Shown piece after piece: positions 170 through 64,000 of a DNA stretch of 64,000 nucleotides. Below the pieces are notes generated by a model. It did no database searches, was not told where the DNA came from, and was given only the letters and a program-made list of their open reading frames with translations. Position 1 is the first letter of the stretch; every line of letters begins with the position of its first letter. This DNA comes from the human T2T-CHM13v2.0 reference genome, Homo sapiens, in assembly GCF_009914755.1 (NCBI RefSeq), contig NC_060925.1; one strand, written 5' to 3'. Made by a program: the position numbers and the translations under genes.

Positions 170-8842
<8,673 letters not shown>

Positions 8843-9060
8843 GGTGCAGCACCTGCTGGATCTCTGAGTGCCCCTACCTCTCTCTGACCACCCCCGTCCC
8901 CCTGTGCTCAAATCCAGGGAGGATTGTCCCGCCCACTTGTGGGGAGAGTGAAGGAGGAGGGCAGAACTTGGACCTCAGAGTTCAGAATCAATTGACTATG
9001 GATGATCCACCTAGGGCAACAGTGGGAGAAAAGCTTCATCAGCTGTCTACCACATTCCCC
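8843..9060 (-). promoter_or_regulatory. CYP4A11 5'UTR and proximal promoter (no obvious TATA box)
   Basis: Directly upstream of ATG; GC box CCCGCCC 8928-8934; half-site pair TGGACC-n4-AGTTCA 8969-8984; ONECUT-like AATCAAT 8986-8992; block conserved in the paralogous copy at 61910-62150. Confidence 0.65.
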
Positions 9061-10727
9061 TGTCCATGTACCTCACAAATATTTAATGAGCATTTACTGT
9101 GTGCCAGGCAGTATGCTAGGTGTGTGGGCACCGCTGCGAGGAAAACAGACTTGAATGCTGACCTCAAGGAATTTGCATTCTGCTTTACTACATTGCAATA
9201 ATGTTCATTCAGTAGCACTTTTTTTTTGTTATGTGTTCAAAGAAAATTCTCAACATGATATGTACATTTAAACTTAACATTAACCAAGCCCTGAATCATT
9301 ACTTTTGTCTTATTGCAAATCTAATTTTATTTACCATAAAAACCACTTCCATCTATATATTGAGTGAAGAGTGGGAATTATGTCTTTCTAGTAACTGGAT
9401 GATGATATGGACAAACAGATGCTAATATAGCAGCTGTTCAAGTACTTTATTTTATTCCATTGGGGAAACTGGTCTCATAATATGCATAGCATGATTTTTT
9501 TTCTCAATTCATATACATGACAATTTAAAAAAATTCTACATCATGTTAGGTATGACTTTTTCCCCTATTGATAGGTCTACCTTTTCTACCAGAGTAAGTC
9601 CTAGAGCAATTTTAGTCCTACTTCAGTCTAGTACTATAGTCACAGCAGGAGCCTGTTTACCAATTCTCTTTCACCCTACAATAGTACGTAATTACACAAT
9701 CAGAACTTTGCACTCTGTTTAGGAGTCCTGACCAAGGACAATCTGTACTAAACAGAAATTAATATTTAAAAAATGATTGCTTTGCCAACCTCAAGTAAAG
9801 TAGGTTAAATAGCAACTGTTGCTATGAATTAACCCTCCCTGGCATTTTTACATGCATATCTGTGCATGAGCATTCTTTTTTTCCTCTTTTTATAATTTCA
9901 ACTTTTATTTTAGATTCAGGTACGTATGCAGGTTTTTTACACTGGTGTATTGTGTGATGCTGAGGGTTTGGATACAAATGATTCTGCCACTCAGGTAGTG
10001 AGTATGGTATATATTAGTCAAATTTCCAATGCTTACTCATATCTGTACCTACCCCTCTAGTAGTCCCCAGTGTCTATTGTTCCCATATTTATGTCCATAA
10101 GTATCCAAAATGTAGTTCCCACTTATAAGTGAGAACATGTGGTATTTGGTTTTCTGTTGCTGTGTTAATTTGCTTAGGATTATTGCCTCCCAATTCATCC
10201 ATGTTGCTGCAAAGAACATGATTTCTTTATTTTTTTATAGCTGTCTAGTATTCCACTGTGTATATGTATCACATTTTCTTTATCCAGTCCACCATTGATG
10301 GGCACCAAGGTTGATGCCATGTCTTTGCTATTGCGAATAGTGCTGTGATGAATGTATGAGTAGAGGTGTCTTTTTGGTAGAGCAACTTATTTTCTTTTTG
10401 ATATATAGCTAATATTGGGATTGCTGGGTCAAATAGTAGTTCTATTTTAAGTTCTTTGAGAAATCTCCAAACTGCTTTCCACAGTGGCGGAACTAATTTA
10501 CATTTCCACAAACAATGTATACACATTATGTTTTTTTTCTGCAGCTTAGCCAGCATATGTTGCTTTGAAACTTTTTAATAATAGCCATTCTGACTTGTGT
10601 GAGATGTGGTTTTGATTCACATTTCTCATTAGTGATGTTGAGCATTTTTAAAAATATTTTTTGGCTGCTCATATGTTTTCTTTAGAGAAGTGTCTGTGTC
10701 TTTAATGGGGTTGTTTGTTTTTCGCTT

Positions 10728-12738
10728 GTATTGGAAGTTCTGGCCAGGTAAGAGAAAGAAGTAAAGGGTATTCAAATAGGAAGAGAGGAAGTCAAATTGT
10801 CTCTGTTTGCAGATGACATGACTGTATATTTAGAAAACCCCATCATCTCAGTCCAAAATCTCCCTAAGCTGATAAGCAACTTCAGCAAAGTCTCAGGATA
10901 CAAAATCAATGTGCAAAAATCACAAGCATTCCTACACACCAATAATAGAGAAACAGAAAGCCAAATCATGAGTGAACTCCCATTCACAATTGCTACAAAG
11001 AAAATAAAATACCTAGGAATACTGCTTACAAGGGATGTGAAGGACCTCTACAAGGAGAACTACAAGCCACTGCTCAACAAAATGAAAGAGGACACAAAGA
11101 AATGGAAAAAAATTCCATGCTCATGGATAGGAAGAAACAATATAGTAAAAATGGCCGTACTGCCCAAAGTAATTTATAGATTCAATGCTATTCCCATCAA
11201 GCTACCATTGACTTTCTTCACAGAATTAGAAAAAACTACTTTAAATTTCATATGGAATAAAAAAAGAGCCCCCATTGCCAAGGCAATCCTAAGCAGAAAG
11301 AACAAAGCTGGAGGCATCATGCTACCTGACTTCAAACTACACTACAAGGCTACAGTACCCAAAACAGCATGGTGCTGGTACCAAAACAGATATACAGACC
11401 AATGGAACAGAACAGAGGCCTCAGAAATAACACCACTTATCTACAATTATCTGATCTTTGATAAACCTGACAAAAACAAGCAATGGGGAAAGGGTTCCCT
11501 ATTTAATATATGGTGTTGGGAAAACTGGCTAGCCATATGCAGAAAACTGAAACTGGACCCTTCCTTAAACCTTACACAAAAATTATTTCAAGATGGATTA
11601 AAAACTTAAACTTAAGATGTAAAACCATAAAAAGCCTGGAAGAAAACCTAGGCAATACCATTCAGGACATAGGCAGGGGCAAGGACTTCATGTCCAAAAC
11701 GTCAAAAGCAATGGCAACAAAAGCCAAAGTTGACAAATGGAATCTGATTAAGCTAAAGAGTTTCTGCAGAGCAAAAGAAACTATCATCAGAATGAAAAGG
11801 CAACCTACAGAATGGGAGAAAATTTTTGCGATCTATCCATCTGACAAAGGGCTAATATCGAGAATCTACAAAGAACCTAAACAAATTCACAAGAAAAAAA
11901 CAACCCCATCAAAAAGTGGGCAAAGGATATGCACAGACACTTCTCAAAAGAAGACATTTATGCAGCCAAAAAAACAGCAAAAAAAGCTCATCATCACTGG
12001 TCATTAGAGAAATGCAAACCAAAACCGCAATGAGATACCATCTCATGCCAGTTAGAATGGCAATCATTAAAAAGTCAGGAAACCACAGATGCTGGAGAGG
12101 ATGTGGAGAAATAGGAATGCTTTTACACTGTTGGTGGGATTGCAAATTAATTCAACCATTGTGGAAGGCAGTGTGGCAATTCCTCGAAGGTCTAGAACCA
12201 GAAATACCATTTGACCCAGCAATCCCATTACTGGGTATATACCCAAAGGATTATAAATCATTCTACTATAAAGACACATGCACATATATGTTCATTGCAG
12301 CACTGTTCACAATAGAAGACTTGGAGCCAACCCAAATGCCCATCAATGATAGATTAGATAAAGAAACTGTGGCACGTATACACCATGGAACACTATACAG
12401 CCATAAAAGAGGATGAGGTCATGTCCTTTGCAGGGACATGGATGAAGCTGGAAACCATCATTCTCAGCAAACTAACACAAGAACAGAAAACCAAACACCA
12501 CTTGTTCTCACTCATAAGTGGGAGTGGAACAATGAGAACACATGGACACAGGGAGGGGAACATCACACACAGGGACCTATCTGGCATGGGGGGTTAGGGG
12601 AGGGATAGCATTAGGAGAAATACCTAATGTAGATGACGGGTTGATGGGTGCAGCAAACCACCATGGCACATGTATACCAATGTAACAAACCTGCACTTTC
12701 TGCACATGTATCTCCGAACTTGAAGTATAATAAAAAAA
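10728..12738 (+). mobile_element. 5'-truncated L1PA (about L1PA6-7), decayed ORF2 RT/C-terminus, 3'UTR and short A tail
   Basis: ORF 10797-11609 contains LFADD (L1 RT motif); canonical L1PA 3'UTR; no clear TSD. Confidence 0.92.
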
Positions 12739-13030
12739 TGAATTGTTTAATTTCTTTAGGGATTCTGGATATTAGACCTTTGTCAGATGCATAGTTTATG
12801 AATATTTTCTTCCATTCTGTAGGTTGTCTGTTTACTTTGCTCAAGTTTCTTTTGCTGTACAGAAGCAGTTTAATTAAGTCCCACTTGTGAATTTTTACTT
12901 TTTTGCAATTGCTTTTGAGGACTTAGTTATAAATTCTTTCTCAAGGCTGATGTAAATCATCATGTTTCCTAGGTTTTCATCTAGGATTCTTATAGTTTCA
13001 GGTCTTACATTTAAACCTTTAATCGATCTT

Positions 13031-13287
13031 GTCTTTTTTTTTTTTTTTTTTGATGTTGGCTCACTGCAAGCTCAGCCTCCCAGGTTCATGCCATTCTCCT
13101 GCCTCACCCTCCTGAGTAGCTGGGACTACAGGTGCCCACCACCACGCCCAGCTAATTTTTTGTATTTTTAGTAGAGATGGGGTTTCACCATATTAGCCAG
13201 GATGGTCTCGACCTTCTAACCTCGTGATCTGCCCACCTCGGCCTCCCAAAGTGCTGGGATTACAAGCGTGAGCCACCGTGCCCGGCC
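13031..13287 (-). mobile_element. AluY-like element missing about 45 nt next to its tail
   Basis: Alu consensus on minus strand; TSD CCTTTAATC(G/C)ATCTT at 13016-13030 and 13288-13302. Confidence 0.9.
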
Positions 13288-13469
13288 CCTTTAATCCATC
13301 TTAACTTAATTGTTATATGGTGAAAAGTCAGGGTCCAGTTGCATTCTTTTGCATATGGTCACCCAGTTTTCCCAGTACTATTTATTGTATAGGGAGTCCT
13401 TTTCCCATTGCTTATTTTTGTCAACATTGTTGAGGATCAGATGGCTGTAGGTGCATGGCTTTATTTCTT

Positions 13470-13820
13470 TTTTTCTCTTTTTGTAAAATATTATTTGTTA
13501 AATTTTTGATTCAGAGGGTACATGTGCAGGTTTGTTACATGAGTATATCGCATGATACTGAAGTTTGGGCTCCTAGCCCAGGTAGTGAACACAGTACCTA
13601 ATAGGTAGCTTTTCCATCCTTTCCCCCTCCCTCCATCACATCCCTTTTTGGAGTCCTCAGTGTCTGCCATTCCCATCTTTGTGTCTATGTGTATCCAATG
13701 TTTAGGTCCCAGTTATAAGTGATAACATGCAGTATTTGGCTTTCTGTTACTGTGTTAATCGGCTTAGGGTAATGGCTTCCAGCTGTATCCATGTTGCTGA
13801 AGAGGACATGATTTCATTCT
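13470..13820 (-). mobile_element. L1PB-like 3' end fragment
   Basis: L1 3'UTR motif GGTACATGTGCAGGTTTGTTACATG following a T-rich tail. Confidence 0.75.
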
Positions 13821-13990
13821 TTTTTTTTTATATTATACGTTAAGTTCTAGGATACATGTGCACAACTCGCAGGTGTGTTACATATGTATACATGTGCCAT
13901 GTTGGAGTGCTTCACCCATTAACTCGTCATTTACATTAAGTATATCTCCTAATGCTATCCCACCACCCTCCCCCCACCCCACAACAGGCC
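13821..13990 (-). mobile_element. Short L1PA (about L1PA4-5) 3' end, fused to a HERV-W fragment
   Basis: T-tract then TTAAGTTCTAGGATACATGTGCAC...AACTCGTCATTTACATT...CCCACAACAGGCC. Confidence 0.88.
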
Positions 13991-15487
13991 GATGCGTGTG
14001 CCCCTACCTTTCCTACTGATCCATACCTCCTGGGTCCTGACTACGACTTTCCTGAAAGTGTAGCCCCAAAATCCTCCTTACTTCTGAATCGACTTCCTCT
14101 GATCCCTGCCTCCTAGATACTAATGCTTCAGGCTTTCACTTCCTCTCCCAAGTATTAGAGCAGGTTGTATCTCCAAAGGGATCTAAGGAAGCTCTATGCT
14201 GCATCCTCAGGCCCCTAGGCTATGAACCCAGGGAGTCTTATACCTGGTGTCCCTCCCAATTTAGGCATACAGCTCTCCACATGGGCAGTTATGTGGGACC
14301 CGTTCCCCACCACCCTTGCCAGGGCCTTAGAACTGATAACCTAGTACTTTAACAACTGGAATTGGGTCTACAACAACATACTAGATCAGGATGAAAGCAA
14401 ATTGAGTAAATAAAAGGGAGGCACATATTCCTATAGTGGCAAATGGGGGCAACCAGCGAACATCCTTCCACTGTGTTTCCAAAATCCATCTACAAAGACA
14501 GAAAGGAGAAAGAGAAGGAGAAAGATAGAAGTAGTAAAGAAAAAACAGTGTACCCTATTTCTTTAAAAGCCACGGTAAATTTAAAACCTATAATTGATAA
14601 TTTAAGGTTTTCTCTGTGACCCTGTAACACTCCAATACCACTTTGTTGTCAGTGTAAACAAGGGAATAGCCCAAAAGCACTGAGGCCACTGACAACCAGT
14701 GGCCTTCCTATCAAAAATCCTTAACCCAGAAACCTGCAGATGGCCCACATGCATTCAATATTTTGTGGCAACTGCTTTCCTAACAGAAGGAAGTAGAAAA
14801 TTAGCCTTTAGAGGAAACCTCATTGTGACCACCTCACCAGTTCAGAACTATCCTAAGTCAAAAAAGCAAAAAGGGTAGGTTGCTAACTCAAAAATCTTAA
14901 AGTATGGGGCTATTCTGTTAGAAAAAATAGTTTCACATTAACCACTGAAAATTCCCTTCCCCCAGCAGATTTCCTGACGGGGGATTTAAATCTTAATTAC
15001 CATACGAAGGTCCAACCAGACCTAGGAGGAACTCCCTTCAGGACAGGACAATAGATGGTTCCTCCCAGGTGATTGAGAAAAAAACACAATGGGTATTCAG
15101 TAATTGAAGGAAACTCCTGTAGAAGCAGAGTTAAGAAAATTGCCTAATAACTGGTCTGCTCAAACATGTGAGCTGTTTGCACTCAGCCAAGCCTTAAAGT
15201 ACTTACAAAATCAAAAAACTCTATCTCAATCCTGACTCAAAAGGTTACCCACACCCTCTCTGAAATGAATTTGCATAAGAGAGAACTGTTGCTTGTAGGA
15301 ATGCATCTTGATGGGGCATCTGGGTTATTAGGAAATACTCAGGAACCCAGCCCAGCTCTAGAACTCATGCCTGAGCACAATGGCAATGTCGGGCACACTG
15401 GTAAAGGACCACTAGAATCCAGCAGCCTGGACCCCTTTCTTTGTGGTCAAGAAAGGTGGGAAAACAGGTGCAGGACTGCTACATCCA
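13991..15487 (+). mobile_element. HERV-W (HERV17) internal pre-gag leader fragment without LTRs
   Basis: Colinear with 20166-21660 of the HERV-W copy downstream; about 14 mismatches in the first 400 bp counted by eye. Confidence 0.9.
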
Positions 15488-15570
15488 CCAACTTTCTGGT
15501 ATTTTTTTTTTTTCACAATAGCCCTAGAAAACTAAAATGGGTGGGATAACAATCACTTCTCTCAATATCT

Positions 15571-15628
15571 TGATCTCCTGATCTCGTGATCCACCCACCT
15601 TGGCCTCCCAAAGTGCTGGGATTACAGG
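15571..15628 (-). mobile_element. 58-bp Alu left-arm fragment between 17-bp direct repeats
   Basis: TGATCTCCTGATCTCGTGATCC...GGGATTACAGG flanked by CACTTCTCT(C/G)AATATCT. Confidence 0.85.
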
Positions 15629-16329
15629 CACTTCTCTGAATATCTCATAGAATTATACACTTATTCACTCATTTATTTATTCAAAAACAAAGGTTTTTTT
15701 TTAACCTCACCTTTTAGTAGCTAAAGAAAGAAAAATAAATTATTGTGTTAAAACATTATAGAGGGTGTACTGAAGCAATAAATCATGGGCTTGGGCCATT
15801 CAGAGACAGAGAAAATAAATAAGTAAAGAGGTCTTTAAGGACGAAGAGGAGTTTACCAGTTGGTAAATACTAGAAAAAGGAAAAAGCACTGGCAGATTCA
15901 TGGAGATCATACATGAAAGAGCAGAAATGGGATGAGCTCCTCTTCAAATTACCACTCCTCTCACTTTTTTCATAATTATCTCCACAAGGTCATACCAAAG
16001 GTCATCAATTCAGAACATAAATCAAAGTAGATTTCAGAAAGAATTCCTTGGAAGTCAGCTCTCCCGGGGGCCCGATTTCCTCCTGCTCCCTAATCCATCT
16101 AAACTCTTATGCCCAACACCTTCCTCCTTAGCCCCACTCATGGCAGGTGACTCATTCCAGAACCCAGAGAATCAGAGTTCTTTTCTTTCTGCCTCAAATC
16201 CTGGGCTCCTATCCAAACCAAAGAGTAGGGACATGTAACTATTTACACTTCAATCCACCCAACCTCCCCTAGTTCTGTGACTACTTTCCACCATCCATCA
16301 CTCCCTCCCTGACTCCCACTAGGGACCCT

Positions 16330-16353
16330 TGGACCCTGACTCTTTCCCTACTT
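16330..16353 (-). promoter_or_regulatory. Candidate PPAR/RXR response element (three half-sites, two overlapping DR1s) about 7.5 kb upstream of CYP4A11
   Basis: Minus strand AAGT-AGGGAA-A-GAGTCA-G-GGTCCA, resembling consensus AACT-AGGNCA-A-AGGTCA; motif match only. Confidence 0.5.
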
Positions 16354-17120
16354 GGCTCAGCACCTGTTTTTCTCCCATAGCATGAGCAACAGTAGCTCTG
16401 AAGTCAGAGATTTTAGCTTTGAATTCTCGTTGTGCTTTTTTTTTTTCCCCTCCCTAGATTCTCAATTTCTTTAGAATTGGGCTCAAAATGTGGTAATGGC
16501 CAACATTTAGTGAGCATTTGTTATGTTCTGGCCATGCAGCCAAAACTTTACATGCTTTCTTTGCAAAAACTCTGCAAAAGAGATTTTTAAAAAAATCTTC
16601 ATATTATAGGTGGGAAAGCTAAGGTGCAATCAGGGTAGCTCCCTGTCCAGAATCCCCAGTTGGTAAGAGGTACAGCCAGGATTGTAACCCAGGCAGTCAG
16701 GCTCCAGAGACTTTCCTGTTAACCATTCATTTAAATGAGGTCATGATTAAGTTGAGCCTCCAGTCCAGATGGCACCCCGTAAACTTTCCAGGGAGCATTT
16801 CATGTTTGCTATGTTTTATTCAGTATTTTCAAATAGCAAGAAGATGTGTCAGATTATGAACTCCCCATATTGGCATAAATGCAAGTCTCATTATCCAGGG
16901 CAGCTCCTGTGAGAAACTGAATGGCAACCATGGGGCTAGGTGTAGCATAGTCATTGAAAGCGATGTTTATGGAGAATGTTTAATGATATGAGTAAAGCAT
17001 ATGGGAAAGTGATAAAAGCAGAATATAGAGCCATCTGTAGAGTATGAATGTAACTCTTAGAAAAGTGTGCTTGTGATTGTCAAGACTTATTAACAAGTAT
17101 ATATCTATCCCACTTATTTA

Positions 17121-17432
17121 TTTATTTATGTATTTATTTATTTATTTATTGAGACAGAGCCTTGCTCTGTCACCCCAACTGGAGTGCAGTGGCACGATCT
17201 CAGCTCACTGAAACCTCAGCCTCCTTGGTTAGAGTGATTCTCCTGCATCAGGCTCCTGAGTAGCTGGGATTACAGGCACCCACCACCATGCCTGGCTAAT
17301 TTTTATACTTTTAGTAGTGACAGGGTTTCATCATGTTGGCCAGGCTGTTCTCAAACTCCTGACCTCAGGCGATCCACCCACCTTGGCCTCCCAAAGTGCT
17401 GGGATTACAGGTGTGAGACACTAAGCCTGGCC
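17121..17432 (-). mobile_element. AluS-type element with (TTTA)n tail
   Basis: Full dimer; TSD TATCCCA(C/T)TTATTTA at 17106-17120 and 17433-17447. Confidence 0.93.
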
Positions 17433-17651
17433 TATCCCATTTATTTACTACTCAGATGCCTCCACAAAAACTCCTGAAAGGTGGTAACTCAGCTGCTGTG
17501 TCCTTTGCTTCCCATTGCATGAAGCAGATGACTGTGTCTGTTGATGATGCCCAAGAAATACCTACTGATTGAATCAATGAGGGACAGCTGGAATAAGCAA
17601 AACTTTGAACTGGTTATATCACCATCCTGAAGAGACTCAGTTCAGTTTTGA

Positions 17652-18082
<431 letters not shown>

Positions 18083-18639
18083 TTACTCCTGTGGGTAGAT
18101 CAGCCCAGGGACTTGATTTCTGGGTTTTGATAAAGGTGAGTTTGATGCTGATGTAACTTTACATTTCTTGTACAGAAATATGTTTAGTTTTAGCTGAGGA
18201 CCTTCGGTATCATCACTTCCTTCCTGGAATGAGAGGCAGAGGTGATTCTGAGAAAGGGAGGTTTTCTTACCTCAGTACCTTGCACAGTGCCAGCATGCCA
18301 TTAAGCCTCAAAATGTCTCTTCTGTATTTGCTGAGTGCTTAACCTTTGCTAAGCAAAATCACAGCTACTCCTTAATTTACTAGGTGTCATTAACATTAAC
18401 CTTATTTTACAGACAGGTGAACCAAGGCCCAGAGATGTTAAGTGACTTTCAGATTACAAAGCATGTGAGTGTGAGTGTCAGGATCATCATTTCAAATTCC
18501 TAACTTCAGTTTTGCTAATATCTGAGTATCCTTAGGATAATACTTCCTAGGTGCTGGGCATGGAGCAAAGTGTTTTTAGCCATTATCCTTCTTCATTCTT
18601 ATCATACCCTGATATAGGGCACATGTCACCCTCTGTGTG

Positions 18640-19058: not shown

Positions 19059-21997
19059 AAAGGCCATTTATGAAAAACCTGTGGCTAGCAAACTGATTGG
19101 GGGAAAAGCTGAAAGTGTGTCCTTTAAGAACCACAACAAGACAAGGATGCTGTATCTCACCATTCATATTCAACATAGTATTGGAAGCACTTGCTAGAGC
19201 AATTATGCAAAAGTAGAAATAAGGGACAGCTAAATTAGAAAGGAAGAAGTGAAATTGTCCTTGTTTACAGAGGACATAATATTATATACTGAAAAAACCT
19301 GGCAACCCCCTTTGGGTCCCCTCCCATTTTATGGGAGCTCTGTTTTCACTCTATTAAATCTTGCAACTGCACACTCTTCTGGTCTATGTTTGTTATGGCT
19401 TGAGCTGAGCTATCGCTTGCCATTCACCACGTCTGTTTTCCCGCAGACCTGCCACTGACTTCCATCCCTCCAGATCCAGCAGGGTGTCAGTGGCACTCCT
19501 GATCCAGCAAGGCACCCATTGCCACTCCCAAGTGGGCTAAAGGCTGGCCATTGTTCCTGCACAGTTAAGGGCCCAGGTTCATCCTAATCAAGCTGAATAC
19601 TAGTCGCTGGGTTCCTCGGTTCTCTTCCATGTCCCATGGCTTCTGATAGAGCTATAACACTCACTACATGGCCCAATATTCCATTCCTTGGAATCTGTGA
19701 AGCCAAGAACCCCAGGTCAGAGAAAAAGAGGCTTGTCACCATCTTGGAAGTGGCCCACCATCATCTTGGGAGCTCTAAGAACAAGGACCCCCCCCCCAAT
19801 AACATTTTGGCCACCACGAAGGCACGTCCAAAGTGGTGAGTAATATTGGACCACTTTCTCTTGCTACTCTGTCCTATCCTTCCTTAGAATTGGAGGAAAA
19901 TACCAGGTGCCTGTCAGCTGGTTAAAAACGATTAGTGTGGCCACTGGACTTAAGACTCAGGTGTGAGGCTGTCTGGGAAAGGGCTTTCTAACAACCCCAG
20001 CCTTTTATGGGTTGGGAGTGTTGGTCTGCCTGGAACCAGCTTCTGCTTTCAATATTCCTGGGGAAGTCAAGGGTGGACTAGAGGCAGAAAGCTGACGTCC
20101 CAAACTGCTGGCATTAGCCAGTTGAGATCATGGCACAGCCAGAAGTCTCTACTCAGCATTCACTTATGCATACGCCCCTACCTTTCCTTCTGACCCATAC
20201 CTCCTGGGTCCTGACCATGACTTTCTTGAAAGTGTAGCCCCAAAATTCTCCTTACTTCTGAATTGACTTCCTTTGATCCCTGCCTCCTAGATACTAATGC
20301 TTCAGGCTTTCACTTCCTCTCCCAAGTATTAGAACAGGTTGTATCTCCAAAGGGATCTAAGGAAGCTCTATGCTGCATCCTCAGGCCCCTAGGCTATGAA
20401 CCCAGGGAGTCTTGTCCCCGGTGTCCCTCCCAATTTAGGCATACAGCTCTCCACATGGGCAGTTATGTGGGACCCGTTCCCCACCACCCTTGCCAGGGCC
20501 TTAGAACTGATAACCTAGTACTCTAACAACTGGAATTGGGTCTACAACAACATACTAGATCAAGATGAAAGCAAATTGAGTAAATAAAAGGGAGGCACAT
20601 ATTCCTATAGTGGCAAATGGGGGCAACCAGCGAACATCCTTCCATTCTGTTTCCAAAATGCATCTACAAAGACAGAAAGGAGAAAGAAAGAGAGAAAGAG
20701 AAAGATAGAAGTAGTAAAGAAAAAACAGTGTACCCTGTTTCTTTAAAAGCCAGGGTTAATTTAAAACCTATAATTGATGATTTAAGGTTTTCTCCATGAC
20801 CCTATAACACTCCAATACCACTTTGTTGTCATTGTAAACAAGGGCATAGCCCAAAAGCACTGAGGCCACTGACAACCAGTGGCCTTCCTATCAAAAATCC
20901 TTAACCCAGGAACCTGCCAATGGCCCAGATGCATTCAATCTTTTGCGGCAACTACTTTCCTAACAGAAGAAAGTAGAAAATTAGCCTTTAGAGGAAACCT
21001 CATTGTGAGCCCACCTCACCAGTTCAGAACTATCCTAAGTTAAAAAAGCAAAAAGGGTAGGTTACTAACTCAAAAATCTGAAAGTATGGAGCTATTCTGT
21101 TAAAAAATGATAATTTAACATTAACCACTGAAAATTCCCTTCCCCCAGCAGATTTTCTGACAGGGGATTTAAATCTTAATTACCATACAAAGGTTCAACC
21201 GCACCTAGGAGGAACTCCCTTCAGGACAGGACAACAGATGGTTCCTCCCAGGTGATTGAGAAAAAAACACAATGGGTATTCAATAATTGAAGGAAACTCC
21301 TGTAGATGCAGAGTTAAGAAAATTGCCTAATAACTGGTCTGCTCAAACGTGTGAGCTGTTTGCACTCAGCCAAGCCTTAAAGTACTTACAGAATCAAAAA
21401 GCTCTATCTCAATCCTGACTCAAAGTTTACCCGCATCCTCTCTGAAATGAATTTGCATAAGAGAGAACTGTTGCTTGTAGGAATGCATCTTGATGGGGCA
21501 TCTGGGTTATTAGGAAATACTCAGGAACCCAGTGCAACTCTAGAACTCACCCCTGAGTGCAATGGCAATGTCAGGCATGCTGGTAAAGGACCACTAGAAT
21601 CCAGCAGCCTGGACCCCTTTCTTTGTGGTCAAGAAAGGTGGGAAAACTGGTTCAGGACTGCCCCATTGGTGAACGTAACTAATCCAATAAGCAGAGGTCC
21701 ACTGGTGGCTATGCACCCTAGAAAGGAACTCATCTCTGAGTGCAACAGCAGTGTTGGATATGCTGGTAAAGGACCTCTAGAACCCAGCAGCCCCATCCCC
21801 TTTCTTAGTGGTCAGGAAAGGCAGGAAAATAGGTGGAGGACTGCTACATCATTGAAAGTAACTAATCTGAAAAGCAGAGGTCCTTGAGTGGTTACGCACC
21901 TGAAAGGAATAAGCATTAGCTCCATAGAGGATGCTCTAGGTCTAATGCTCATCAGAAAATGACTAAGAGTGCTGGCATCCCTATGTTTTATTTTCAA

Positions 21998-23075
21998 ATG
22001 GGAAACATTTCCCCCAAGGCAAAAATGCCCCTAAGATGTATTCTGGACAATTATGCCCAGTCAGAGTGTACATACCTTTTTCCCTGTCAGACTTGAAGCA
22101 AATTAAAATAGACCTAGGTAAATTCTCAGCTAAGACTGATAGATATTTTGATGTTTTACAAGTGTTAGGACAATCCTTTCATCTGACATGGAGAGATATC
22201 ATGTTACTGCTAGATCAGACACTAACCCCAAATAAGAGAATTGCCGCCATAACTGCAGCCTGAGAGTTTGGTCATCTCTTGTATCTCAGTCAGGTCAATG
22301 ATAGGATGACAACAGAGGAAAGAGAACAATTCCCCACAGGCCTGCATGCAGTTCCCCGTGTAGACACTCACTGGGACACAGAATCGGATCATGGAGATTG
22401 GTGCCACAGATATTTGCTAACTTGGGTGATACAAGGACTAAGGAAAAGTAGGAGATAGCCCATAAATTATTCAATTATGTCCACTGTAACACAGAGAAAG
22501 GAAGAAAATCCTACTGCCTTTCTGCAGAAACTAAGGGAGGCATTGAGGAAGCATACCTCTCTGTCACCTGACTCTATTGAAGGCTAACTAATCTTAAAGG
22601 ATAAGTTTATCACTCAGTCAGCTGCAGACATTAGAAAAAAACTTCAAAAGTCCGCCTTAGGCCCAGAGCAAAACTTAGTTACTGGGTTCATAGCCCCATG
22701 ACCCATGGCTTCTAATAGAGCTATTAGAACTATTGAACTTGGCAACCTTGTTTTTTTTATAATAGAGATCAGGAGGAGCAGGCACAATGGGAGAAACAAG
22801 AGAAGAAAAAGGCCACGGCTTTAGTCATGGCCCTCAGGCAAGCAGACTTTGGAGGCTCTGGAACACAGAAAGCTGGGCAAATTGAATGCCTAATAGGGCT
22901 TGCTTCCAGTGTGGTCTACAAGGACACTTTAAAAAAGATTGCCTGAATAGAAATAAGCCACCACCTCGTCCATGCCCCTTATGTCAAGGGAATCACTGGA
23001 AGGCCCACTGTCCCAGGAGATGAAGGTCCTCTGAGTCAGAAGCCACTAACCAGGTGATCCAGCAGAAGGACTGAG
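21998..23075 (+). pseudogene. HERV-W gag, disrupted
   Basis: ATG GGA AAC start; CFQCGLQGHFKKDC and CPLCQGNHWKAHC zinc knuckles near 22900-23010; stops, frameshifts, internal deletion. Confidence 0.85.
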
Positions 23076-25677
23076 GATGCCCAGGGTAAGCACCAGCCCA
23101 TGCCATCACCCTCACAGTGCCTTGGGTATGCTTGATCATTGAGGGCCAGGGGGTTAACTGTCTCCTGGACACTGGTGCAGCCTTCTCAGTCTTACTCTCC
23201 TGTCCTAGACAACTGTCCTCCAGATCTGTCACTATCCAAGGGGTCCTAGGACAGCCAATCACTAGATACTTCTCCCAGCCACTAAGTTGTGACTGGAGAC
23301 ATTTACTCTTTTGACATGCTTTTCTAGTTATGCCTGAAAGCCCCACTTCCTTGTTAGGAGGAGACATTCTAGCAAAAGCAGGGGCCATTATACACCTGAA
23401 CATAGGAGAAGGAACACTCATTTGTTGTCCCCTGCTTGAGGAAGGAATTAATCCTGAAGTCTGGGCAACAGAAGGACAATATGGATGAGCAAAGAATGCC
23501 TGCCCTGTTCAAGTTAAACTAAAGGATTCCACCTCCTTTCCCTACCAAAGGCAGTACCCCCTTAGACCCGAGGCCTAGCAAGGGCTCCAAAGGATTGTTA
23601 AGGACCTAAAAGCCCAAGGCCTAGTAAAAACATGCAATAGCCACTGCAGTACTCCAATTTTAGGAGTACAGAAACCCAACGGGCAGTGGAGGCTAGTGCA
23701 AGATCTCAGGATTATCAATGAGGCCGTTGTCCCTCTACACCCAGCTGTACCTAACCCTTATACTCTGCTTTCCCAAATACCAGAGGAAGCAGAGTGGTTT
23801 ACAGTCCTGGACCTTAAGGATGTCTTTTTCTGCATCCCTGTACATCCTGACTCTCAATTCTTGTTTGCCTTTGAAGATCCTTCAAACCCAACATCTCAAC
23901 TCACCTGGATTGTTTTACCCCAAGGGTTCAGGGATAGCCCCCATCTATTTGGCCAGGCACTAGCTCAAGACTTGAGCCAGTTCTCATACCTGGACACTCC
24001 TCTCCTTCAGCACATGGATGATTTACTTTTAGCTGCCCTTTCAGAAACCTTGTGCCATCAAGCCACCCAAGCATTCTTTAATTTCCTCTCCACCTGTGCT
24101 ATAAGGTTTCCAAACAAAAGGATCAGCTCTGCTCACAGTAGGTTAAATACTTAGTGCTAAAATTATCCAAAGGCACCAGGGCCCTCAGTGAGGAACATAT
24201 CCAGCCTATCCTGGCTTTTCCTCATCCCAAAACCGTAAAGCAACTAAGAGCGTTCCTTGGCATAACAGGCTTCTGCTGAATATAGATTCCCTGGTACAGC
24301 AAAATAGCCAGATCATTATATACACTAATTAAGGAAACTCAGAAAGGCAATACCCATTTAGTAAGATGGACACCTGAAGCAGAAGTGACTTTCCAGGCCC
24401 TAAAGAAGGCCCTAACCTAAGCTCCAGTGTTAAGCTTGCCAACGTGGCAAGACTTTTCTTTATATGTCACAGAAAAAACAGGAATAGCTCTAGGAGTCCT
24501 TACACAGGTCTGACGGACCAGCTTGCAACCTGTGACATACCTGAGTAAGGAAATTGATGTAGTGGCAAAGGGTTGGCCTCATCGTTTATGGGTAGTGGCA
24601 GCAGTAGCAGTATTAGTATCTGAAGCAGTTAAAATGATACAGGGAAGAGATCTTACTGTGTGAACATCTCAAGATGTGAATGGCATACTCACTGCTAAAG
24701 GAGACTTGTGGATGTCAGACAACCATTTGCTTAAATATCAGCATCTATTACTTGAAGGGCCAGTGCTGCGACTGCGCCCTTGTGCAACTCTTAATCCAGC
24801 CACATTTCTTCCAGACAATGAAGAAAAAATAAAACATAACTGTCAACAAGTAACTGCTCAAACCTACACCACTCAAGGGGACCTTCTAGAGGTTCCCTTG
24901 ACTGATCATGATCTCAACTTGTATGCTGATGGAAATTCCTTTGTAGAAAAAGGACTTTGAAAAGTGGGGTATGCAGTGGTCAGTGATAATGGAATACTTG
25001 AAAATAATCCCCTCACTCCAGGAAGAAGCGCTTAGCTGGAAGAACGAATAGCTCTCACTCAGGCAATAGAATTAGGAGAAGGAAAAAGGGTAAATATATA
25101 TACAGACTCTAAGTATGCTTAGCTAGTCCTCCATGCCCACACAGCAATATGGAGAGAAAGGAAATTCCTGACTTCCAAAGGAACACCCATCAAACATCAG
25201 GAAGCCATCAGGAGATTATTATCGGCTGTACAGAAACCTAAAGAGGTGGCAATCTTATGCTGCCGGGGTCATCAGAAAGGAAAAGAAAGGGAAATAGAAG
25301 GGAACTGCCAAACGGATATCAAAGCCAAAATAGCTGCAAGGTAGGACCCTCCATTAGAAATACTTATAGAAGGACCCCTAGTATGGGGTAATCCCCTCTG
25401 GGAAACCAAGCCCCAGTACTCAGCAGGAGAAATAGAATGGGGAAACTCATGAGGACATAGTTTCCTCTCCTCAGGATGGCTAGGCACCAAAGAAGGAAAA
25501 ATACTTTTGCCTGCAGCTAACCAATGGAAATGACTTAAAACCCTTCACCAAACCTTTCATTTAGGCATTGATAGTACCCATCAGCAGGCCAAATTATTAT
25601 CTACTGGACCAGACCTTTTCAAAACTTTCGAGCAGATAGTCAGGGCCTGTAAAATGTGCCAAAGAAATAATCCCCTG
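23076..25677 (+). pseudogene. HERV-W pro-pol, disrupted and truncated early in integrase
   Basis: Protease LLDTGA; RT LDLKD, LPQGFRDSP and degenerate HMDD (24011-24022); RNase H YADG and YTDSKYA; many stops. Confidence 0.88.
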
Positions 25678-25700
25678 CACTGCAGGCCATACATTTCAAT

Positions 25701-25935
25701 CCCTGTATCTTTAACCTCCTTGTTAAGTTTATCTCTTCCAGAATCAAAGCTGTAAAACTACAAATCATTCTTCAAATGGAGCCCCAGATGCAGTCCATGA
25801 CTAAGATCTACTGTGGACCCCTGGACTGGCCTGCTAGCTCATGCTAGCACCCCTACTGACATTGACAGCACCCCTCCTGAGGAAATCTCAACTGCATGAC
25901 CCCTACTATGCCCCAGTTCAGCAGGAAGCAGTTAG
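25701..25935 (+). pseudogene. HERV-W env C-terminal remnant
   Basis: PCIFNLLVKFISSRIKAVKLQIILQMEPQMQSMTKIY, syncytin-1-like cytoplasmic tail, followed by the polypurine tract at 25981-25993. Confidence 0.85.
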
Positions 25936-28802
25936 AATGGTCATCGGCCAACCTCCCCAACAGCACTTGGGTTTTCCTGTTGAGAAAGGGGACTGAGAGA
26001 CAGGACTAGCTGGATTTCCTAGGCTGACTAAGAATCCCTAAGCCTAGCTGGGAAGGTGACCACATCCACCTTTAAACACGGGGCTTGCAACTTAGCTCAC
26101 ACCCAACCAATTGGGCAGTAAAGAGAGCTCACTAAAATGCTAATTAGGCTAAAACAGGAGGCAAAGAAGTAGCCAATCATCTATTGCCTGAGAGCACAGC
26201 AGGAGGGACAATGATCAGGATATAAACCCAGTATTCGAGCTGGCAATGGCAATCCCCTTTGGGTCCCCTCCCATTTTATGGGAGCTCTGTTTTCACTCTA
26301 TTAAATCTTGCAACTGCAAAAAGAAAAAAAAAAAGAGAGAAAAAGAAAAAAAAGAGAAAAAACCCAAATGCTCTACCAAAAAACAAAAAACCTGTTACAA
26401 CCAATAAACAAATTCAGTGAAGTTGCACAATACAAATCAAAATACAAAACCTGTAGCATTTATATACACGAATCATAAACTAGTTGAAAATAAAACTAAG
26501 AAAGGAATCCCGTTTAAAATAGTTACAAAATATACCTAAAAATAAATTTAACCAAGGAGGTGAAAAATATGTATACTGAGAACTATAGAACATTGATAAA
26601 AGAAATTAAAGAAGACACATATAAAAATGGAAAGGCACCCCATGTTCATGAACTTGAACAATTAATATTGTTAAAATAAGCATACTGCACAAAGCAATAT
26701 ACAGGGTCAATACAATCCTTATCAAAATACCAGCGACATTCTTCACAGAAATAGAAAAAAATTCAAACATTCATAGAGAACCACAAAAGACCCCAATAGT
26801 CAAAGCAATGCTGAGAAAAAGAATAAAACTGGAGGCATCACGCTACCAGACTTCAAAATATATACAAAGCTATAATAACCAAAACAGAATAGTCCTGGGA
26901 TAAAAAAGACGTAGAACAATGCAAGAGAATAGAGAACACAGAAATTAATTTACATATCCATTGTCAGCTGATTTTTGACAAAGGTGCCAAGAATAGTCAT
27001 TGGGAAAGTACAGTCTCTTTAATAAACAGTGCTGGGAAAACTGGATATCCATAAGTAGCTGAATGAAACTAGACCCCTATTTCTCACCCCTATTTCTCAT
27101 GCAAGAACCAACTCAAAATGGATTAATGACATAAATTTAAGACCCTGAAACCATAAAACTACTAGAATAAAATGGGGGGAAAATGCTTCAGGACATTGGT
27201 CTGGGAAAAAATTTTATGAATAACACCTCAAAAGCAATGGCAACCAAAGGAAAAATGAACAAATGAGATTATATCAAACTAAGAAGTTTCTGCATATCAA
27301 GGAAAATAATCAATAAAGTGAAAAGATAGCCAGGAGAAAAGATTTGCAAACTACTAATCAGACAGCAGATTAATATCCACAGTATACAAGAAACTCAAAC
27401 ATCTCAACTCAGAAAAAAATCTGATTAAAAATGAGCAAATGATCTGAACAGATATTTCTCAAAAGAGGACATACAAATGGTCAACAGGTGTATGAACATA
27501 ATGCTCAACATCACTAATCATCAAGGAAATGTAAATCAAAAGCACAATGATATATCATATCCCAGTTAGGATGATTGTTATCAAAAAGACAAAATGGCAA
27601 CAACAACAAAAACAACACTAGGAAGAATGCCAAAAAAGGAAACTCATATACACTGTTGGTGGGAATGTACAGTAGTACAACCACTGGAGAATGACATGGA
27701 GGTTTCTCAAAAACCTACAAAGAGAACTCACACGTGATCCAGCAATTTTCCTGCTGGGTATTTATCAAAAGGAAAGAAAAGGAAGGAACATCAGTGTACT
27801 GAAAGGATATCTGTACCTTCATGTTTATTGCAGCATGATTCACAAGAATCAACATGTGAAATCAACCCAGTGTTCAACAACAGATGACTGGATGAAGAAA
27901 ATGTAATATATACACACAATGGACTACTGTTTAGCCATAAAAAAATAAAATGCTGTCATTGATGGCAACATGGAAAGAACTGGATGACATTATATTAATT
28001 GAAATAAGTCAGGAAAAGAAACTGCATGTTGTCACCCTTATGCAGAGGCTAAAAATAGTTGATGTCATAGTTGTAAAAGGTTAGTAGAGTCTGCAGAGGT
28101 TAGTAGAGTCTGGGAAGGGAGGTGTAGTGAGAGATTTTTTTAAAGGACACAAAATTATAGCTAGATAGGAGGAATAAGTTTTCATGGGTATAGCACTGTA
28201 GGATGACTATAGCTAACAACAATATATGTTTTCAAATAGAAGAGAGCATATTGAGTGTTCCTAACACAAAGAAATGACAAATGTTTGAGATGATGGCTAT
28301 GCTAATTGCCAATGGTCGCTATACACTGTATGTATGAAAACATCAAAAAATACCTCTAAATATGTACAATTATTATGTGTCAATTTGAAAAATATTTTTT
28401 AAATGTGTTGAATGATACAAGGGTGGAATAGAGATAATTTCTCTATTGCACAACAAGCAACTATTACTTTTATAAAGAAAATGCTTTAATGTGGACAAGA
28501 AAGTGCTTTCTGGCTGCAGTGCAGTAGAGAGTTGGTGGCAGGTGTGAGGTGGAAGCAAGTTGGCTAGTTTGGAGGTTGTTGAGCTAACCCCAGTGTAAGA
28601 AGAGGGTGGCTTGGACTTAGAACAGTGGGTGTGAGGCTGGAGTGGGCACTGAAACCAGAGATGTTTAGGAGAGGGAGGTACAGGAGTGGGAGGGAAGCTC
28701 CCACAGACTGCCTGGGCAGTCTCCTCCCCTGCCCTCCCAGAGACTTCGGGCTTTAGTGGTGATACTGGATTCCTAAGTGGCCTTGGCCTTCTGTTATTTC
28801 AG

Positions 28803-61756: not shown

Positions 61757-61779
61757 ATGCCCACCATTCCCTTAGTGCT

Positions 61780-61909
61780 GGCAGTGCCTGTGCAGTTAGG
61801 GCTGGGCTGCCTTCAATAGTAACAGAAGCAGGCTCAGCAGTGAGGCTCCTTGGAGGAGCCCTGAGACACCATCTGGGAGTCTGTTGGGGTTCAGCACAGA
61901 GACACTCAT
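61780..61909 (-). pseudogene. CYP4A43P: CYP4A exon-1 pseudogene, 3'-truncated, stop at codon 38
   Basis: [40 protein letters not shown] versus CYP4A11 [41 protein letters not shown]; TAA at 61796-61798. Symbol assigned from memory of cluster order. Confidence 0.88.
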
Positions 61910-64000
61910 GCCGCAGCACCTGCTGGATCACTGAGTGCCCCTGTCAGTCCCTGACTGCCCCTGACTATCCCTGACCACCTCTGACAAGTCCTGTGAGATC
62001 CCCTGTCTACTTGTGGGGAAGGTAAAGTGGGAAGGAAGATCTTGGACCCCAGTGTCCAGAATTGATTGATTGTGCAGGATCCACCTGGGGAAATAGCAAG
62101 AGGAAAGCTTCGTGAGCTGTCCATAGTAATGGCCATGCACACACCCACATTCCCCTGTCCATATCACTCAAAAATATTCAACAAACACCTACTATGTGCC
62201 AGGCAGTATGCCAGATGGGGGGCACAGCTGTATAGAAACAGAAATGAACTGTGACTTTAGGAATTTATAGTCTAATTTACTGAATGTTCAAAACATGTGG
62301 CTGCTTTTATTATTACCTGGATTTCAGTAATGAGAAAATGATTACAGAGGAGTAGAAACTTCTGTTAAAAATAAAACACCCACTGAGAGTCAAAGATGGA
62401 TTAGACTCTTTCTCTACTCCAATACTCCCTGTCCCAGGTGCCTCTGAAATATTACCTGGGGCTGGCCCTGTCCACCCTTCAGTCATCGCCCAAGGTGATG
62501 GTGCTGGTGGATGGAGCACTGGACTTGGACTCAGGAGCCTCAAGCCTCAGGCTCACTATATATGTTGATAGAAACTTAAAGTCTCTGAGCCTCAATTTTT
62601 TTCTGTTGTAAGGTGGGAGCATAATCTTTATGCTACGTACCTAATAGATTTAAGTCATTCTTTCATTCAGCAAATGTTTCTTGAGCTCATAATTTAGAGG
62701 CTAAAGGCAGAAAACTAAAACTGTTCAATAAAATATCATAAGGCTTTACTAGGGAAGTGAAATATCCATCCAGGAAAGGAAAAATCTAAAAAGGAAGAAT
62801 GAGGTCTTGAAGAGTAATAGGAGTTAACCGGGTAGAGAGTCCTAGGTAGAGGGACAAGCACCGAGAAAATCATGGAGATCACAGATAGAGGAGCAAGGGA
62901 TGGGACATTTTATCTTCAAGTTCTGCACTCTCACTTTTTTCATGATTTATTTTCTCTAAGATCAAATTCAATGTCCAGAGTTCAGAGAGTAAGACACAAC
63001 AGATATTTCTTGAAAAATTCCTCGGAAGTTTTAGAAGCCAGCTCTCACTGGGATCACAAGTTTCCTCCTGACCTGCTCTTTCACCCACCTTAAGTCTTAC
63101 TCCCATCACTTTCCCCTTTGTGCCCCTGCCTTGTGACAAGAAATTCATTATAAAACTCATAGGGCCAGAGTTCTTTTCATTCTCCTCTAAGTCCTGGATG
63201 CCATGCAAAACCAACGGCAGAAGGCCATGCAACAACGTACACCCCATTTCAGCTGCCTTTCGTTTAGTTCTGTTGCTCCTTTTCCTCACTACATCATCCG
63301 GACACTGACACTTTTCATGCTGGGCTCAGCACCTGGTTTTTATTCACCCCCTGAGATACAGCAGCAGAAAGAGGTGTAGAGTCATAGTGCCTGTCTGTGA
63401 AACCTGGTTTTGGCTGTTTCTGTCTTTGGGTACTCATTTCTTAAAACAGTTGAGTTCATAATGTGGTAATATACAACATGTAGCGGGCACTGGCTATGTT
63501 CTAGGCATTGAACAAACAACTTTACATACTTTCTATCACAACAACTCTACGAAACTGTTTCTTAAAAAGAAATCTGATATTGTACATATAGAAACTAAGG
63601 CATGAAGAGGGCAGCTGCAACACTAGTGTCCCCCTGTTGGTAAGAGGTACAGCCAGGATTCTAACCCAGGCAGTCTGGCTCAGGAGACTTTGCTGTTCAC
63701 CATCCATGTAAAGGAGATAATGATTAGGTTGAGCATCCAGGCCAGGTGGCAGCTCCTAAACATTCCAGGTGACATTTCATGTTTGCCATGTTTCTTCCAG
63801 TGTTTCCAAGTAGCAGGATGAGGTGTCAGGTTATCAACTACACATATTGACATAAATGCAAGCAAGCCTCTCTATTCGGGGTGGTTTCTGTGTGAAAGTG
63901 AATGGCAAAACTTGGGGCTAGGAGTAACATAGTCATTGAAAATGATGTTTATGGAGAATGTTTAATGATATGAATAAGAGTATAACAAAGCAATAAAAGC
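61910..64000 (-). other. Ancient duplicate of the CYP4A11 promoter and upstream region
   Basis: 61910-62290 aligns with 8843-9195; about 62605-64000 aligns with about 15530-17019 (e.g. GTTGGTAAGAGGTACAGCCAGGATT and GATGTTTATGGAGAATGTTTAATGATATGA identical). Confidence 0.9.

What the first reader, a model, noticed from the sequence alone, without database searches (positions are those of the whole stretch)
9195..15530. About 6 kb of stacked transposons turned a proximal CYP4A promoter block into a distal one
Seen: in the fossil copy the two homology blocks are only about 0.3 kb apart (62290 to 62605), so the upstream block starts about 0.7 kb from the ATG. In CYP4A11 the same block starts about 6.7 kb from the ATG, and the gap is mostly L1s, an Alu and a HERV-W fragment. 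Inference: the pseudogene preserves the ancestral spacing, and primate insertions displaced CYP4A11 regulatory elements. This could contribute to the modest fibrate response of human CYP4A11 relative to rodent Cyp4a genes.
Basis: partly seen in the sequence, partly recalled or inferred. Interest (0 to 1): 0.7.

Follow-up and report, generated by a model that had tools for sequence, protein, structure and literature searches.

The report
Mitochondrial fossil inside CYP4A11 promoter
The DNA behind the human CYP4A11 promoter is a layered pile of insertions whose first layer is a decayed piece of mitochondrial DNA that likely pushed the neighbouring block away before primate transposons arrived and likely carries a known blood-pressure promoter variant, while a link to the weak fibrate response is unsupported.

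Summary
The spacing difference is real: the upstream block starts 0.70 kb from the ATG in pseudogene CYP4A43P and 6.7 kb in CYP4A11; CYP4A22 shares the stack. About 88% of the gap is L1, Alu and HERV-W, but the 696 bp next to the promoter (9183-9878) is an ancient mitochondrial ND5 insertion (NUMT), and the far junction keeps 52 bp of an old LTR. An older paralogous upstream region, likely broken by an inversion into two halves 341 kb apart, holds more of this NUMT (ND5, tRNA-Leu, ND1) and the whole LTR: about 3.8 kb. So the block was likely already distal before primate L1/Alu/HERV-W; these replaced older filler through a deletion, with the HERV-W piece copied from the neighbouring locus 1p33b. 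The pseudogene's junction is ancestral (unbroken SINE), but probably too old to explain a human-rodent difference. No regulatory activity of the displaced block could be shown; its best AGGTCA pair is absent from the pseudogene. Most interesting: the functional promoter variant -845A/G (rs9332978) falls inside the NUMT, 15 bp from a lineage-gained HNF4-type motif; co-option is possible, unproven.

The parts
8704..9189 (-). Proximal block: CYP4A11 exon 1, core promoter, tail of an old LINE-type repeat (L2 name recalled)
   Evidence: 72% to 61771-62281; 96% to CYP4A22; its last part hits 14 unlinked sites
9183..9878 (+). Ancient NUMT, mitochondrial ND5 (about mt 12.6-13.3 kb), decayed by stops and frameshifts; -341 to -1036 from the ATG
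   Evidence: Aligns to another ND5 NUMT, score 12820 vs best of 50 shuffles 2056; 9340-9477 in code 2 hits solved ND5, E 1.5e-5; copies in CYP4A22 (K2P 0.038) and beside CYP4B1 (0.26)
9687..9687 (-). Likely site of promoter variant -845A/G (rs9332978), counted from the ATG; sense G here, A in CYP4A22
   Evidence: counting from the TSS gives 9730, sense C, also inside the NUMT; variant described in PMC5816861; exact coordinate not confirmed by a variant database
9702..9714 (-). HNF4-type DR1 motif in the NUMT; its core G is present in CYP4A11 and CYP4A22, absent in the CYP4B1-side copy and three other NUMTs
   Evidence: expected 0.04 in a stretch of this composition; found after a looser scan, one of six regions tested
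9879..13468 (-). Old L1 (three pieces 9879-10727, 12741-13031, 13288-13468) inserted into the NUMT and later interrupted
   Evidence: 73-77% (one piece up to 82%) to other L1 copies, 96% to CYP4A22; self-BLAST
10728..12740 (+). Younger 5'-truncated L1
   Evidence: RVT_1 match E 3.7e-8; 88-89% to other L1 copies
13032..13287 (-). Alu with target-site duplication
   Evidence: Duplicated flank at 13016 and 13288; 89% to the Alu at 17825
13469..13820 (-). 3' end of a second old L1
   Evidence: 70-75% to other copies
13821..13991 (-). 3' end and poly(A) of a young L1, fused directly to the HERV-W piece; no target-site duplication found
   Evidence: 89-90% to other copies; junction shared with CYP4A22
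13992..15484 (+). HERV-W leader piece, a local copy of 20166-21661
   Evidence: 94.5% to the neighbour; 12 private shared columns with it vs 0,0,1,0,0,0 with six distant copies, clade support 0.998
15485..15536 (+). Last ~52 bp of an old LTR-type repeat (MLT1/MaLR name recalled) that is whole in paralog c3: marks a deletion
   Evidence: 15 of 42 non-self matches end at the same base
15537..18171 (.). Distal block: duplicated flank shared by CYP4A11, CYP4A22, paralog c3 and the fossil; contains old SINE-like DNA (16446-16825) and later Alus
15987..16004 (+). Two perfect AGGTCA half-sites 6 bp apart (imperfect DR1 and DR2 overlap), about -7.1 kb; identical in CYP4A22, one kept in c3, neither in the fossil
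19300..26316 (+). HERV-W processed pseudogene 1p33b, donor of the piece
   Evidence: Sequence; length and place match Grandi 2016 Table S1, 33.8 My, shared with rhesus
61771..62281 (-). CYP4A43P exon-1 remnant and promoter (fossil proximal block)
62282..62610 (.). Fossil-only spacer, ending in a SINE-like element (62514-62624) that is cut in the other copies
   Evidence: Single hit in the genome; profile match E 1e-5 with the test sites left out of training
62611..64000 (.). Fossil distal block (runs on to about 64513); mosaic in divergence
   Evidence: 37% mismatch to CYP4A11 over 15630-16480, 22% over 16481-17110, Fisher p 6e-10; change point near 16540-16650, 0 of 200 permutations

Best explanation
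The CYP4A11 upstream gap is a layered record of insertion and deletion that begins with a mitochondrial ND5 insertion touching the promoter, and the block was likely already several kb away before primate transposons arrived. Order: (1) compact ancestor, kept at the CYP4A43P junction (polarity shown by the unbroken SINE; age inferred); (2) a NUMT (ND5 joined to tRNA-Leu/ND1) and an old LTR element entered between promoter and block, at least about 3.8 kb (pieces shown in a paralog; that CYP4A11's ancestor held all of them is inferred from the shared ND5 end and shared LTR tail); (3) L1s and an Alu inserted into the NUMT and into each other (shown); (4) one complex event, likely an L1-initiated break repaired with 1.5 kb copied from the neighbouring HERV-W 1p33b, deleted the rest of the NUMT and nearly all of the LTR (products shown, mechanism inferred), after about 34 My and before the CYP4A11/CYP4A22 duplication; (5) CYP4A22 inherited the stack. 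The added distance most likely has little effect on fibrate induction.
For: NUMT identity. Same insertion beside CYP4B1: 69 of 322 columns where both depart together from three other NUMTs, K2P 0.26. Its ND1 stops near residue 60 at C1:46702184 and resumes near residue 67 at C1:47043350 on the other strand, then LTR block, then the c3 distal block; piece sizes 696+245+284+790+1832 bp. Tsuji 2012 lists three of these outside pieces with ages a, a and o (a = after the human-mouse split, o = older). LTR tail. HERV-W local origin. No target-site duplication around the L1-tail/HERV-W unit and no ND1 or LTR-internal remnant left in CYP4A11. No NUMT or LTR trace in the fossil.
Against: No other mammal could be aligned, so dates rest on paralog distances and recalled rate calibrations. 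The ND1 half and the second LTR unit could have been gained by the paralog after it split from CYP4A11, which would lower the early spacing to about 1.4 kb. Joining the CYP4B1-side and c3 halves is an inference; the test for recombination between the two L1s at the ends was negative. CYP4A11's HERV-W piece is closer to the donor (4.6%) than to CYP4A22's piece (5.7%), 9 vs 3 shared columns, which needs later gene conversion. The fossil is a mosaic. Subfamily names of L1, MLT1, MIR and L2 are recalled; no repeat library was on hand.
Confidence: 0.75

Rival explanations
1. One reading: primate L1/Alu/HERV-W moved a proximal PPARA enhancer 6 kb away and so blunted the human fibrate response.
For: 88% of the present gap is such DNA; the human response is modest, 2-fold vs 30-70-fold in mouse (PMC2840373 passage).
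Against: Block likely distal by about 3.8 kb before these elements; the LTR at the junction is old, so rodents may share the spacing; AGGTCA pair absent from the fossil; no DR1 excess; a review calls the assumption that PPAR sites lie near the start site likely flawed (PMC4060217); a recalled rabbit/rat PPRE motif has no match in the window at 3 mismatches. Recalled, not seen: the rat CYP4A1 PPRE is itself about 4 kb upstream.
Confidence: 0.07
2. The displaced block is a working distal nuclear-receptor enhancer whose distance is harmless (compatible with the best explanation).
For: Two perfect AGGTCA half-sites, identical in CYP4A22; fewer changes on the CYP4A11 line than on c3 in 15630-16480, 43 vs 74, p 0.005. 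Recalled, paper not held: Savas 2009 reported PPARA-binding elements near -7.2 and -4.5 kb; the second would fall in the old L1 near 13320.
Against: The asymmetry is absent in 16481-17110 (45 vs 54) and reversed further out (38 vs 24); the fossil outgroup is mosaic; no perfect DR1; the RefSeq table given with the task lists no element here.
Confidence: 0.45
3. The NUMT remnant has been co-opted as a working part of the CYP4A11 promoter (HNF4A/FOXA1/CEBPB site), sitting where the old block once sat.
For: -845 lies in the NUMT under either numbering; PMC5816861 reports, citing Sugimoto 2008, lower promoter activity of -845G and lists FOXA1, HNF4A, ARID3A, CEBPB from rSNPBase; HNF4-type motif 15 bp away with a core base gained on the CYP4A11/22 line.
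Against: No constraint on the NUMT as a whole: 30 vs 30 lineage-specific changes, CYP4A11/22 distance 0.034 like the adjacent old L1 at 0.030; the motif was found post hoc; the primary paper and the supplement were not readable; listed factors may belong to a broad promoter peak.
Confidence: 0.3
4. The long spacing is the original state and the pseudogene became compact by deletion.
For: The fossil is a broken gene among L1s and is mosaic.
Against: The fossil holds 330 bp found in no other copy and an unbroken SINE across the junction; NUMTs and LTRs are insertions by nature; no trace of either in the fossil.
Confidence: 0.05

Closest known systems
Ancient human NUMTs, Tsuji et al. 2012 (PMC3467031), hg18 chr1:47061913-47062312, 47402788-47403095, 47403825-47404151
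   Same: These three rows are the CYP4B1-side and c3 pieces of the same insertion (places agree).
   Different: The table lists them as unique and has no row between hg18 chr1:47062312 and 47402788, so the CYP4A11 and CYP4A22 promoter copies are missing (part 1 of 4 read, which holds all chr1 rows); the pieces are not joined there.
HERV-W processed pseudogene 1p33b, Grandi et al. 2016 (PMC5016936)
   Same: Window 19300-26316 matches in length and place.
   Different: The 1.5-kb piece at 13992-15484 is a secondary local copy without LTR, poly(A) of its own or target duplication; two 1p33 loci were seen in the table passage and neither is this piece.
L1 insertion-mediated deletion with templated filler (recalled: Gilbert 2002, Symer 2002, Han 2005)
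   Same: L1 3' end at a T-run, no target duplication, flanking DNA lost.
   Different: The filler is 1.5 kb of a neighbouring HERV-W; the pre-event allele survives only in a paralog.
CYP4A43P and other detritus CYP4A exons of the CYP4ABXZ cluster (RefSeq table given with the task)
   Same: The 'fossil' is this annotated exon-1 pseudogene.
   Different: Its upstream flank, the third paralogous flank c3 and their mosaic divergence are not in that table.
Transposon-derived promoter and enhancer elements (general knowledge)
   Same: Old inserted DNA next to a promoter carrying factor motifs and a functional variant.
   Different: Here the candidate source is mitochondrial coding DNA; function of the NUMT itself is untested.

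Membership tests
NUMT | Homology to mitochondrial genes, read in the mitochondrial code | tested here: met
   ND5 hits E 1.5e-5 to 1.2e-3, 14 of 20 listed sequences are ND5 and they rank first; ND1 E 2.6e-19 for the c3 piece. Pfam found nothing for the 4 short window frames.
NUMT | Colinear with mitochondrial sequence over the whole stretch | tested here: met
   9183-9878 colinear with three other NUMTs used as stand-ins; no mtDNA itself was on hand
NUMT | Decayed and embedded in nuclear flanks | tested here: met
   Stops and frameshifts in all three frames; flanked by promoter and L1
HERV-W processed pseudogene (piece 13992-15484) | HERV-W family sequence | tested here: met
   94.5% to 1p33b, 83-92% to other scored copies (40 of 626 candidates scored)
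HERV-W processed pseudogene (piece 13992-15484) | R-U5 and U3-R ends, poly(A), target duplication | tested here: not met
   Internal leader only; no duplication found
L1 retrotransposon | ORF2 reverse-transcriptase remnant and similarity to dispersed copies | tested here: met
   RVT_1 in 1 of 7 frames sent (5 were L1 frames); copy identities
L1 insertion-mediated deletion | L1 3' end without target duplication and loss of adjacent DNA | tested here: met
L1 insertion-mediated deletion | Pre-insertion allele in an outgroup species | not testable with these tools
   No other mammal genome held
MaLR/MLT1 LTR | Dispersed ~410-bp repeat with fixed ends | tested here: met
   1110 candidates, 40 scored; copies cover query 33-443
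MaLR/MLT1 LTR | Match to a curated family model | not testable with these tools
   No repeat library; name recalled
PPRE (DR1 bound by PPARA/RXR) in the distal block | Direct repeat of AGGTCA spaced by one base | tested here: inconclusive
   Only imperfect DR1s (15992, score 9.8; 16335, score 10.2); perfect half-sites are 6 apart; no excess over chance
PPRE (DR1 bound by PPARA/RXR) in the distal block | Receptor binding and ligand-dependent activity | not testable with these tools
   Savas 2009 not held
Exapted regulatory element (NUMT) | Purifying selection on the inserted DNA | tested here: not met
   a single site would escape this test
Exapted regulatory element (NUMT) | Measured effect on transcription | tested here: inconclusive
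   Second-hand report for -845A/G; placement by counting

The most novel reading that the evidence does not exclude
A piece of the mitochondrial ND5 gene, inserted in an early placental or primate-line ancestor, now works as part of the CYP4A11 promoter: it gained an HNF4-type site and carries the hypertension-associated -845A/G variant, taking the place of the block it pushed away; the rest of the same NUMT marks an inversion break in the CYP4ABXZ cluster.
Probability: 0.3. Interest if true: 0.7.

Novelty: new member of a known kind. Interest (0 to 1): 0.42.

Why it matters
CYP4A11 makes 20-HETE and its promoter variant -845A/G is studied in hypertension and coronary disease. If that variant sits in co-opted mitochondrial DNA it would be a rare, directly testable case of a NUMT acting in a human promoter. 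The layered history also gives dated markers for the rearrangement of the CYP4ABXZ cluster and warns that a pseudogene's compact spacing can be far older than the species difference one wants to explain. The transposon stack by itself is ordinary.

Tried and rejected
Homology between the two gaps: none. Genome search with the fossil spacer or its SINE: self only. Recalled rabbit/rat PPRE motif: 0 matches at 3 mismatches, 0.93 expected; a general DR1 pattern: 1 match outside the region, 3.6 expected. DR1 excess upstream: none. Constraint on the NUMT: none. Constraint on the distal block: one of three segments only. A single ~8-kb NUMT running through CYTB, D-loop and rRNA: no such pieces found in 192 kb of the cluster; ND5 is joined straight to tRNA-Leu/ND1. 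Inversion by recombination between the two L1s: outer flanks do not match (score 1280, best shuffle 1496). Pfam on short NUMT frames: 0 of 6 cluster frames hit. Papers wanted and not held: Savas 2009, two reviews or follow-ups on CYP4, Aldridge 1995. Ten full-text searches gave no open paper with CYP4A11 PPRE coordinates; NUMT + CYP4A11 gave one false hit. This covers open-access papers only and one NUMT catalogue.


Full report
OBSERVATION. Self-comparison of the window shows two blocks shared by CYP4A11 and the exon-1 pseudogene CYP4A43P: 8704-9189 with 61771-62281 (72%) and 15825-17019 with 62798-64000 (69%). A sensitive alignment extends the second block to 15617/62614, far above 30 shuffles, and finds no homology between the two gaps. 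A genome search finds four copies of the block among 11 matches: CYP4A11, CYP4A22 (95%), a third flank downstream of CYP4A22 that I call c3 (80%), and the fossil (69%); the other 7 are short SINE-like hits. CYP4A22 has the whole stack plus one extra 1-kb insert.

WHAT FILLS THE GAP. Of 6354 bp (9183-15536): L1 60.7%, HERV-W 23.5%, Alu 4.0%, NUMT 11.0%, LTR tail 0.8%. The younger L1 has a reverse-transcriptase remnant and is 88-89% like other copies; the older L1s are mostly 70-77%. Subfamily names are not tested.

THE FIRST LAYER IS MITOCHONDRIAL. 9190-9880 hit CYP4A22, a site beside CYP4B1 and three other chromosomes. Those three are ND5 NUMTs. The window stretch aligns to one over 9183-9878 (score 12820, best of 50 shuffles 2056), and 9340-9477 read in the mitochondrial code hits solved ND5 chains, best group E 1.5e-5 and a last group of three chains at 1.2e-3 (that the weaker group is human is recalled from the entry codes). 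It begins where the proximal block ends. The CYP4B1-side copy is the same insertion: K2P 0.26, and both depart together from three other NUMTs in 69 of 322 columns. Tsuji 2012 (PMC3467031; passages and part 1 of 4 of the hg18 table read) lists the CYP4B1-side piece and two ND1 pieces near c3, ages a, a and o, but has no row at CYP4A11 or CYP4A22. A full-text search for NUMT with CYP4A11 gave one false hit.

AN OLDER PARALOG SHOWS THE PRE-STACK STATE. Beside CYP4B1, ND5 runs on past CYP4A11's end and joins tRNA-Leu and the start of ND1, stopping near residue 60. At c3, ND1 resumes near residue 67 on the opposite strand 341 kb away (E 2.6e-19 to solved ND1), runs to its end, and is followed by a block of two LTR-type units and then the distal block. 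The unit next to the block is a dispersed repeat with fixed ends (15 of 42 non-self matches end at the same base), K2P 0.32-0.34 from five copies. CYP4A11 keeps only its last 52 bp. I infer one lost paralogous flank broken by an inversion; a test for recombination between the L1s at the two ends was negative. Summed, NUMT and LTR put about 3.85 kb between promoter and block. CYP4A11 and c3 differ by K2P 0.234, HERV-W copies by about 0.08, CYP4A11 and CYP4A22 by 0.03-0.06. With recalled human-line rates, 0.23 between paralogs is about the primate root and 0.33 between LTR copies about the root of boreoeutherian mammals. If the ND1 half and second LTR were gained by the paralog alone, the early gap was still about 1.4 kb.

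POLARITY. A profile of SINE-like copies, trained without the test sites, matches fossil 62514-62624 (E 1e-5) and nothing significant at CYP4A11 15400-15800; CYP4A11 and c3 join the fossil only from 62611-62614. The fossil spacer is single-copy and holds no NUMT or LTR trace. So the fossil junction is ancestral. But the fossil is mosaic: 37% mismatch to CYP4A11 over 15630-16480 and 22% beyond, so its compact part comes from a very old paralog line.

THE HERV-W PIECE. 19300-26316 is locus 1p33b of Grandi 2016 (PMC5016936; passages and supplement passages read), 33.8 My, shared with rhesus. The piece at 13992-15484 is closest to it among 40 scored of 626 candidates; over 1389 ungapped columns both pieces share 12 private bases with it and 0,0,1,0,0,0 with six distant near-full-length copies (three partial loci left out), clade support 0.998. 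It is fused to a 170-bp young L1 tail on one side and the LTR tail on the other, with no target duplication, and both junctions are in CYP4A22. The likely mechanism is an L1-initiated break repaired with nearby DNA and a deletion. Against a clean order, CYP4A11's piece is nearer the donor than CYP4A22's piece (9 vs 3 columns), which needs later conversion.

FUNCTION OF THE DISPLACED BLOCK. The block is a duplicated flank that ends near 18134-18171 in all copies and contains old SINE-like DNA; homology alone does not make it regulatory. DR1 motifs over 8886-18200: 4 seen, 5.7 expected. Two perfect AGGTCA half-sites at 15987-16004 are identical in CYP4A22, half kept in c3 and absent from the fossil, so they are not shown to be ancestral. 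The CYP4A11 line is slower than c3 in one of three segments (43 vs 74, p 0.005; 45 vs 54; 38 vs 24). The modest human response is reported (2-fold vs 30-70-fold; PMC2840373 passage; disputed induction, PMC6888257 passage), yet CYP4A11 is among the top 50 induced genes in human hepatocytes (PMC2729378 passage), and nearness of PPAR sites to the start is called a likely flawed assumption (PMC4060217 passage). Savas 2009, which I recall mapping PPARA sites near -7.2 and -4.5 kb, was not held (reference seen in PMC2933910) and is not used as evidence. The fibrate link is therefore unsupported (about 0.07).

THE NUMT AS PROMOTER DNA. PMC5816861 (passages and Table 6 read; supplement unreadable) states that rs9332978 is -845A/G, that Sugimoto 2008 (not seen) found lower promoter activity and hypertension association for -845G, and that rSNPBase lists FOXA1, HNF4A, ARID3A and CEBPB there. 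Counting from the ATG gives window 9687, sense G with A in CYP4A22, which fits an A/G variant; counting from the start site gives 9730; both lie in the NUMT. An HNF4-type motif at 9702-9714 has a core G found in CYP4A11 and CYP4A22 but not in the CYP4B1-side copy or three other NUMTs (expected 0.04; post hoc, one of six regions). Against: the NUMT shows no overall constraint (30 vs 30; 0.034 vs 0.030 for adjacent L1). I put co-option at 0.3.

VERDICT. The anatomy is real and the fossil is ancestral at its junction, but the displacement likely began with mitochondrial DNA and an old LTR, was reshaped by a deletion, and has no shown effect on fibrate response. Each part is a new member of a known kind. 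Interest 0.42, carried by the NUMT in a clinically studied promoter.

Noticed in passing
G000:C1:46700943-46702184 (L013) and C1:47041910-47043350 (L011): Two halves of one ND5/tRNA-Leu/ND1 NUMT, 341 kb apart on opposite strands, about 6 codons missing between them: a likely inversion break bracketing CYP4Z2P-CYP4A22.
   Followed up: partly
G000:C1:47038083-47040082 (L011): A third paralogous CYP4A upstream flank (c3, about 80% to CYP4A11) downstream of CYP4A22 with no promoter or exon 1 found.
   Followed up: yes
G000:C1:47010622-47011649 (L009): CYP4A22 has an extra ~1.03-kb solo-LTR-like insert with a 6-bp target duplication in the younger L1, absent from CYP4A11.
   Followed up: partly
window 8963-8975: A DR1-type motif about 80-90 bp upstream of the start site carries a 1-bp deletion in CYP4A22; a candidate for a difference between the two genes.
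   Followed up: no
window 15554-15645: A 62-bp scrap of an Alu 5' end between two near-identical ~16-bp repeats, without poly(A); shared with CYP4A22, absent from c3.
   Followed up: no
window 62611-64513 vs 15630-18170: The fossil flank is mosaic, with a change point near 16540-16650; gene conversion or unequal crossover is likely, selection not excluded.
   Followed up: partly
window 34695-37533 and G000:C1:46877786-46880327: CYP4A26P and CYP4A27P/44P regions are 3' ends of lost CYP4A genes at 72-82% to CYP4A22; CYP4A43P exon 1 and CYP4A26P may be two ends of one gene whose middle is now L1.
   Followed up: no
window 13992-15484 vs 20166-21661: CYP4A11's HERV-W piece shares 9 private columns with the donor that CYP4A22's piece lacks, suggesting conversion after the gene duplication.
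   Followed up: partly
window 13321-13341: A DR1-like word inside the old L1 at about -4.4 kb, identical in CYP4A22, near where a PPARA site was reported as I recall.
   Followed up: no
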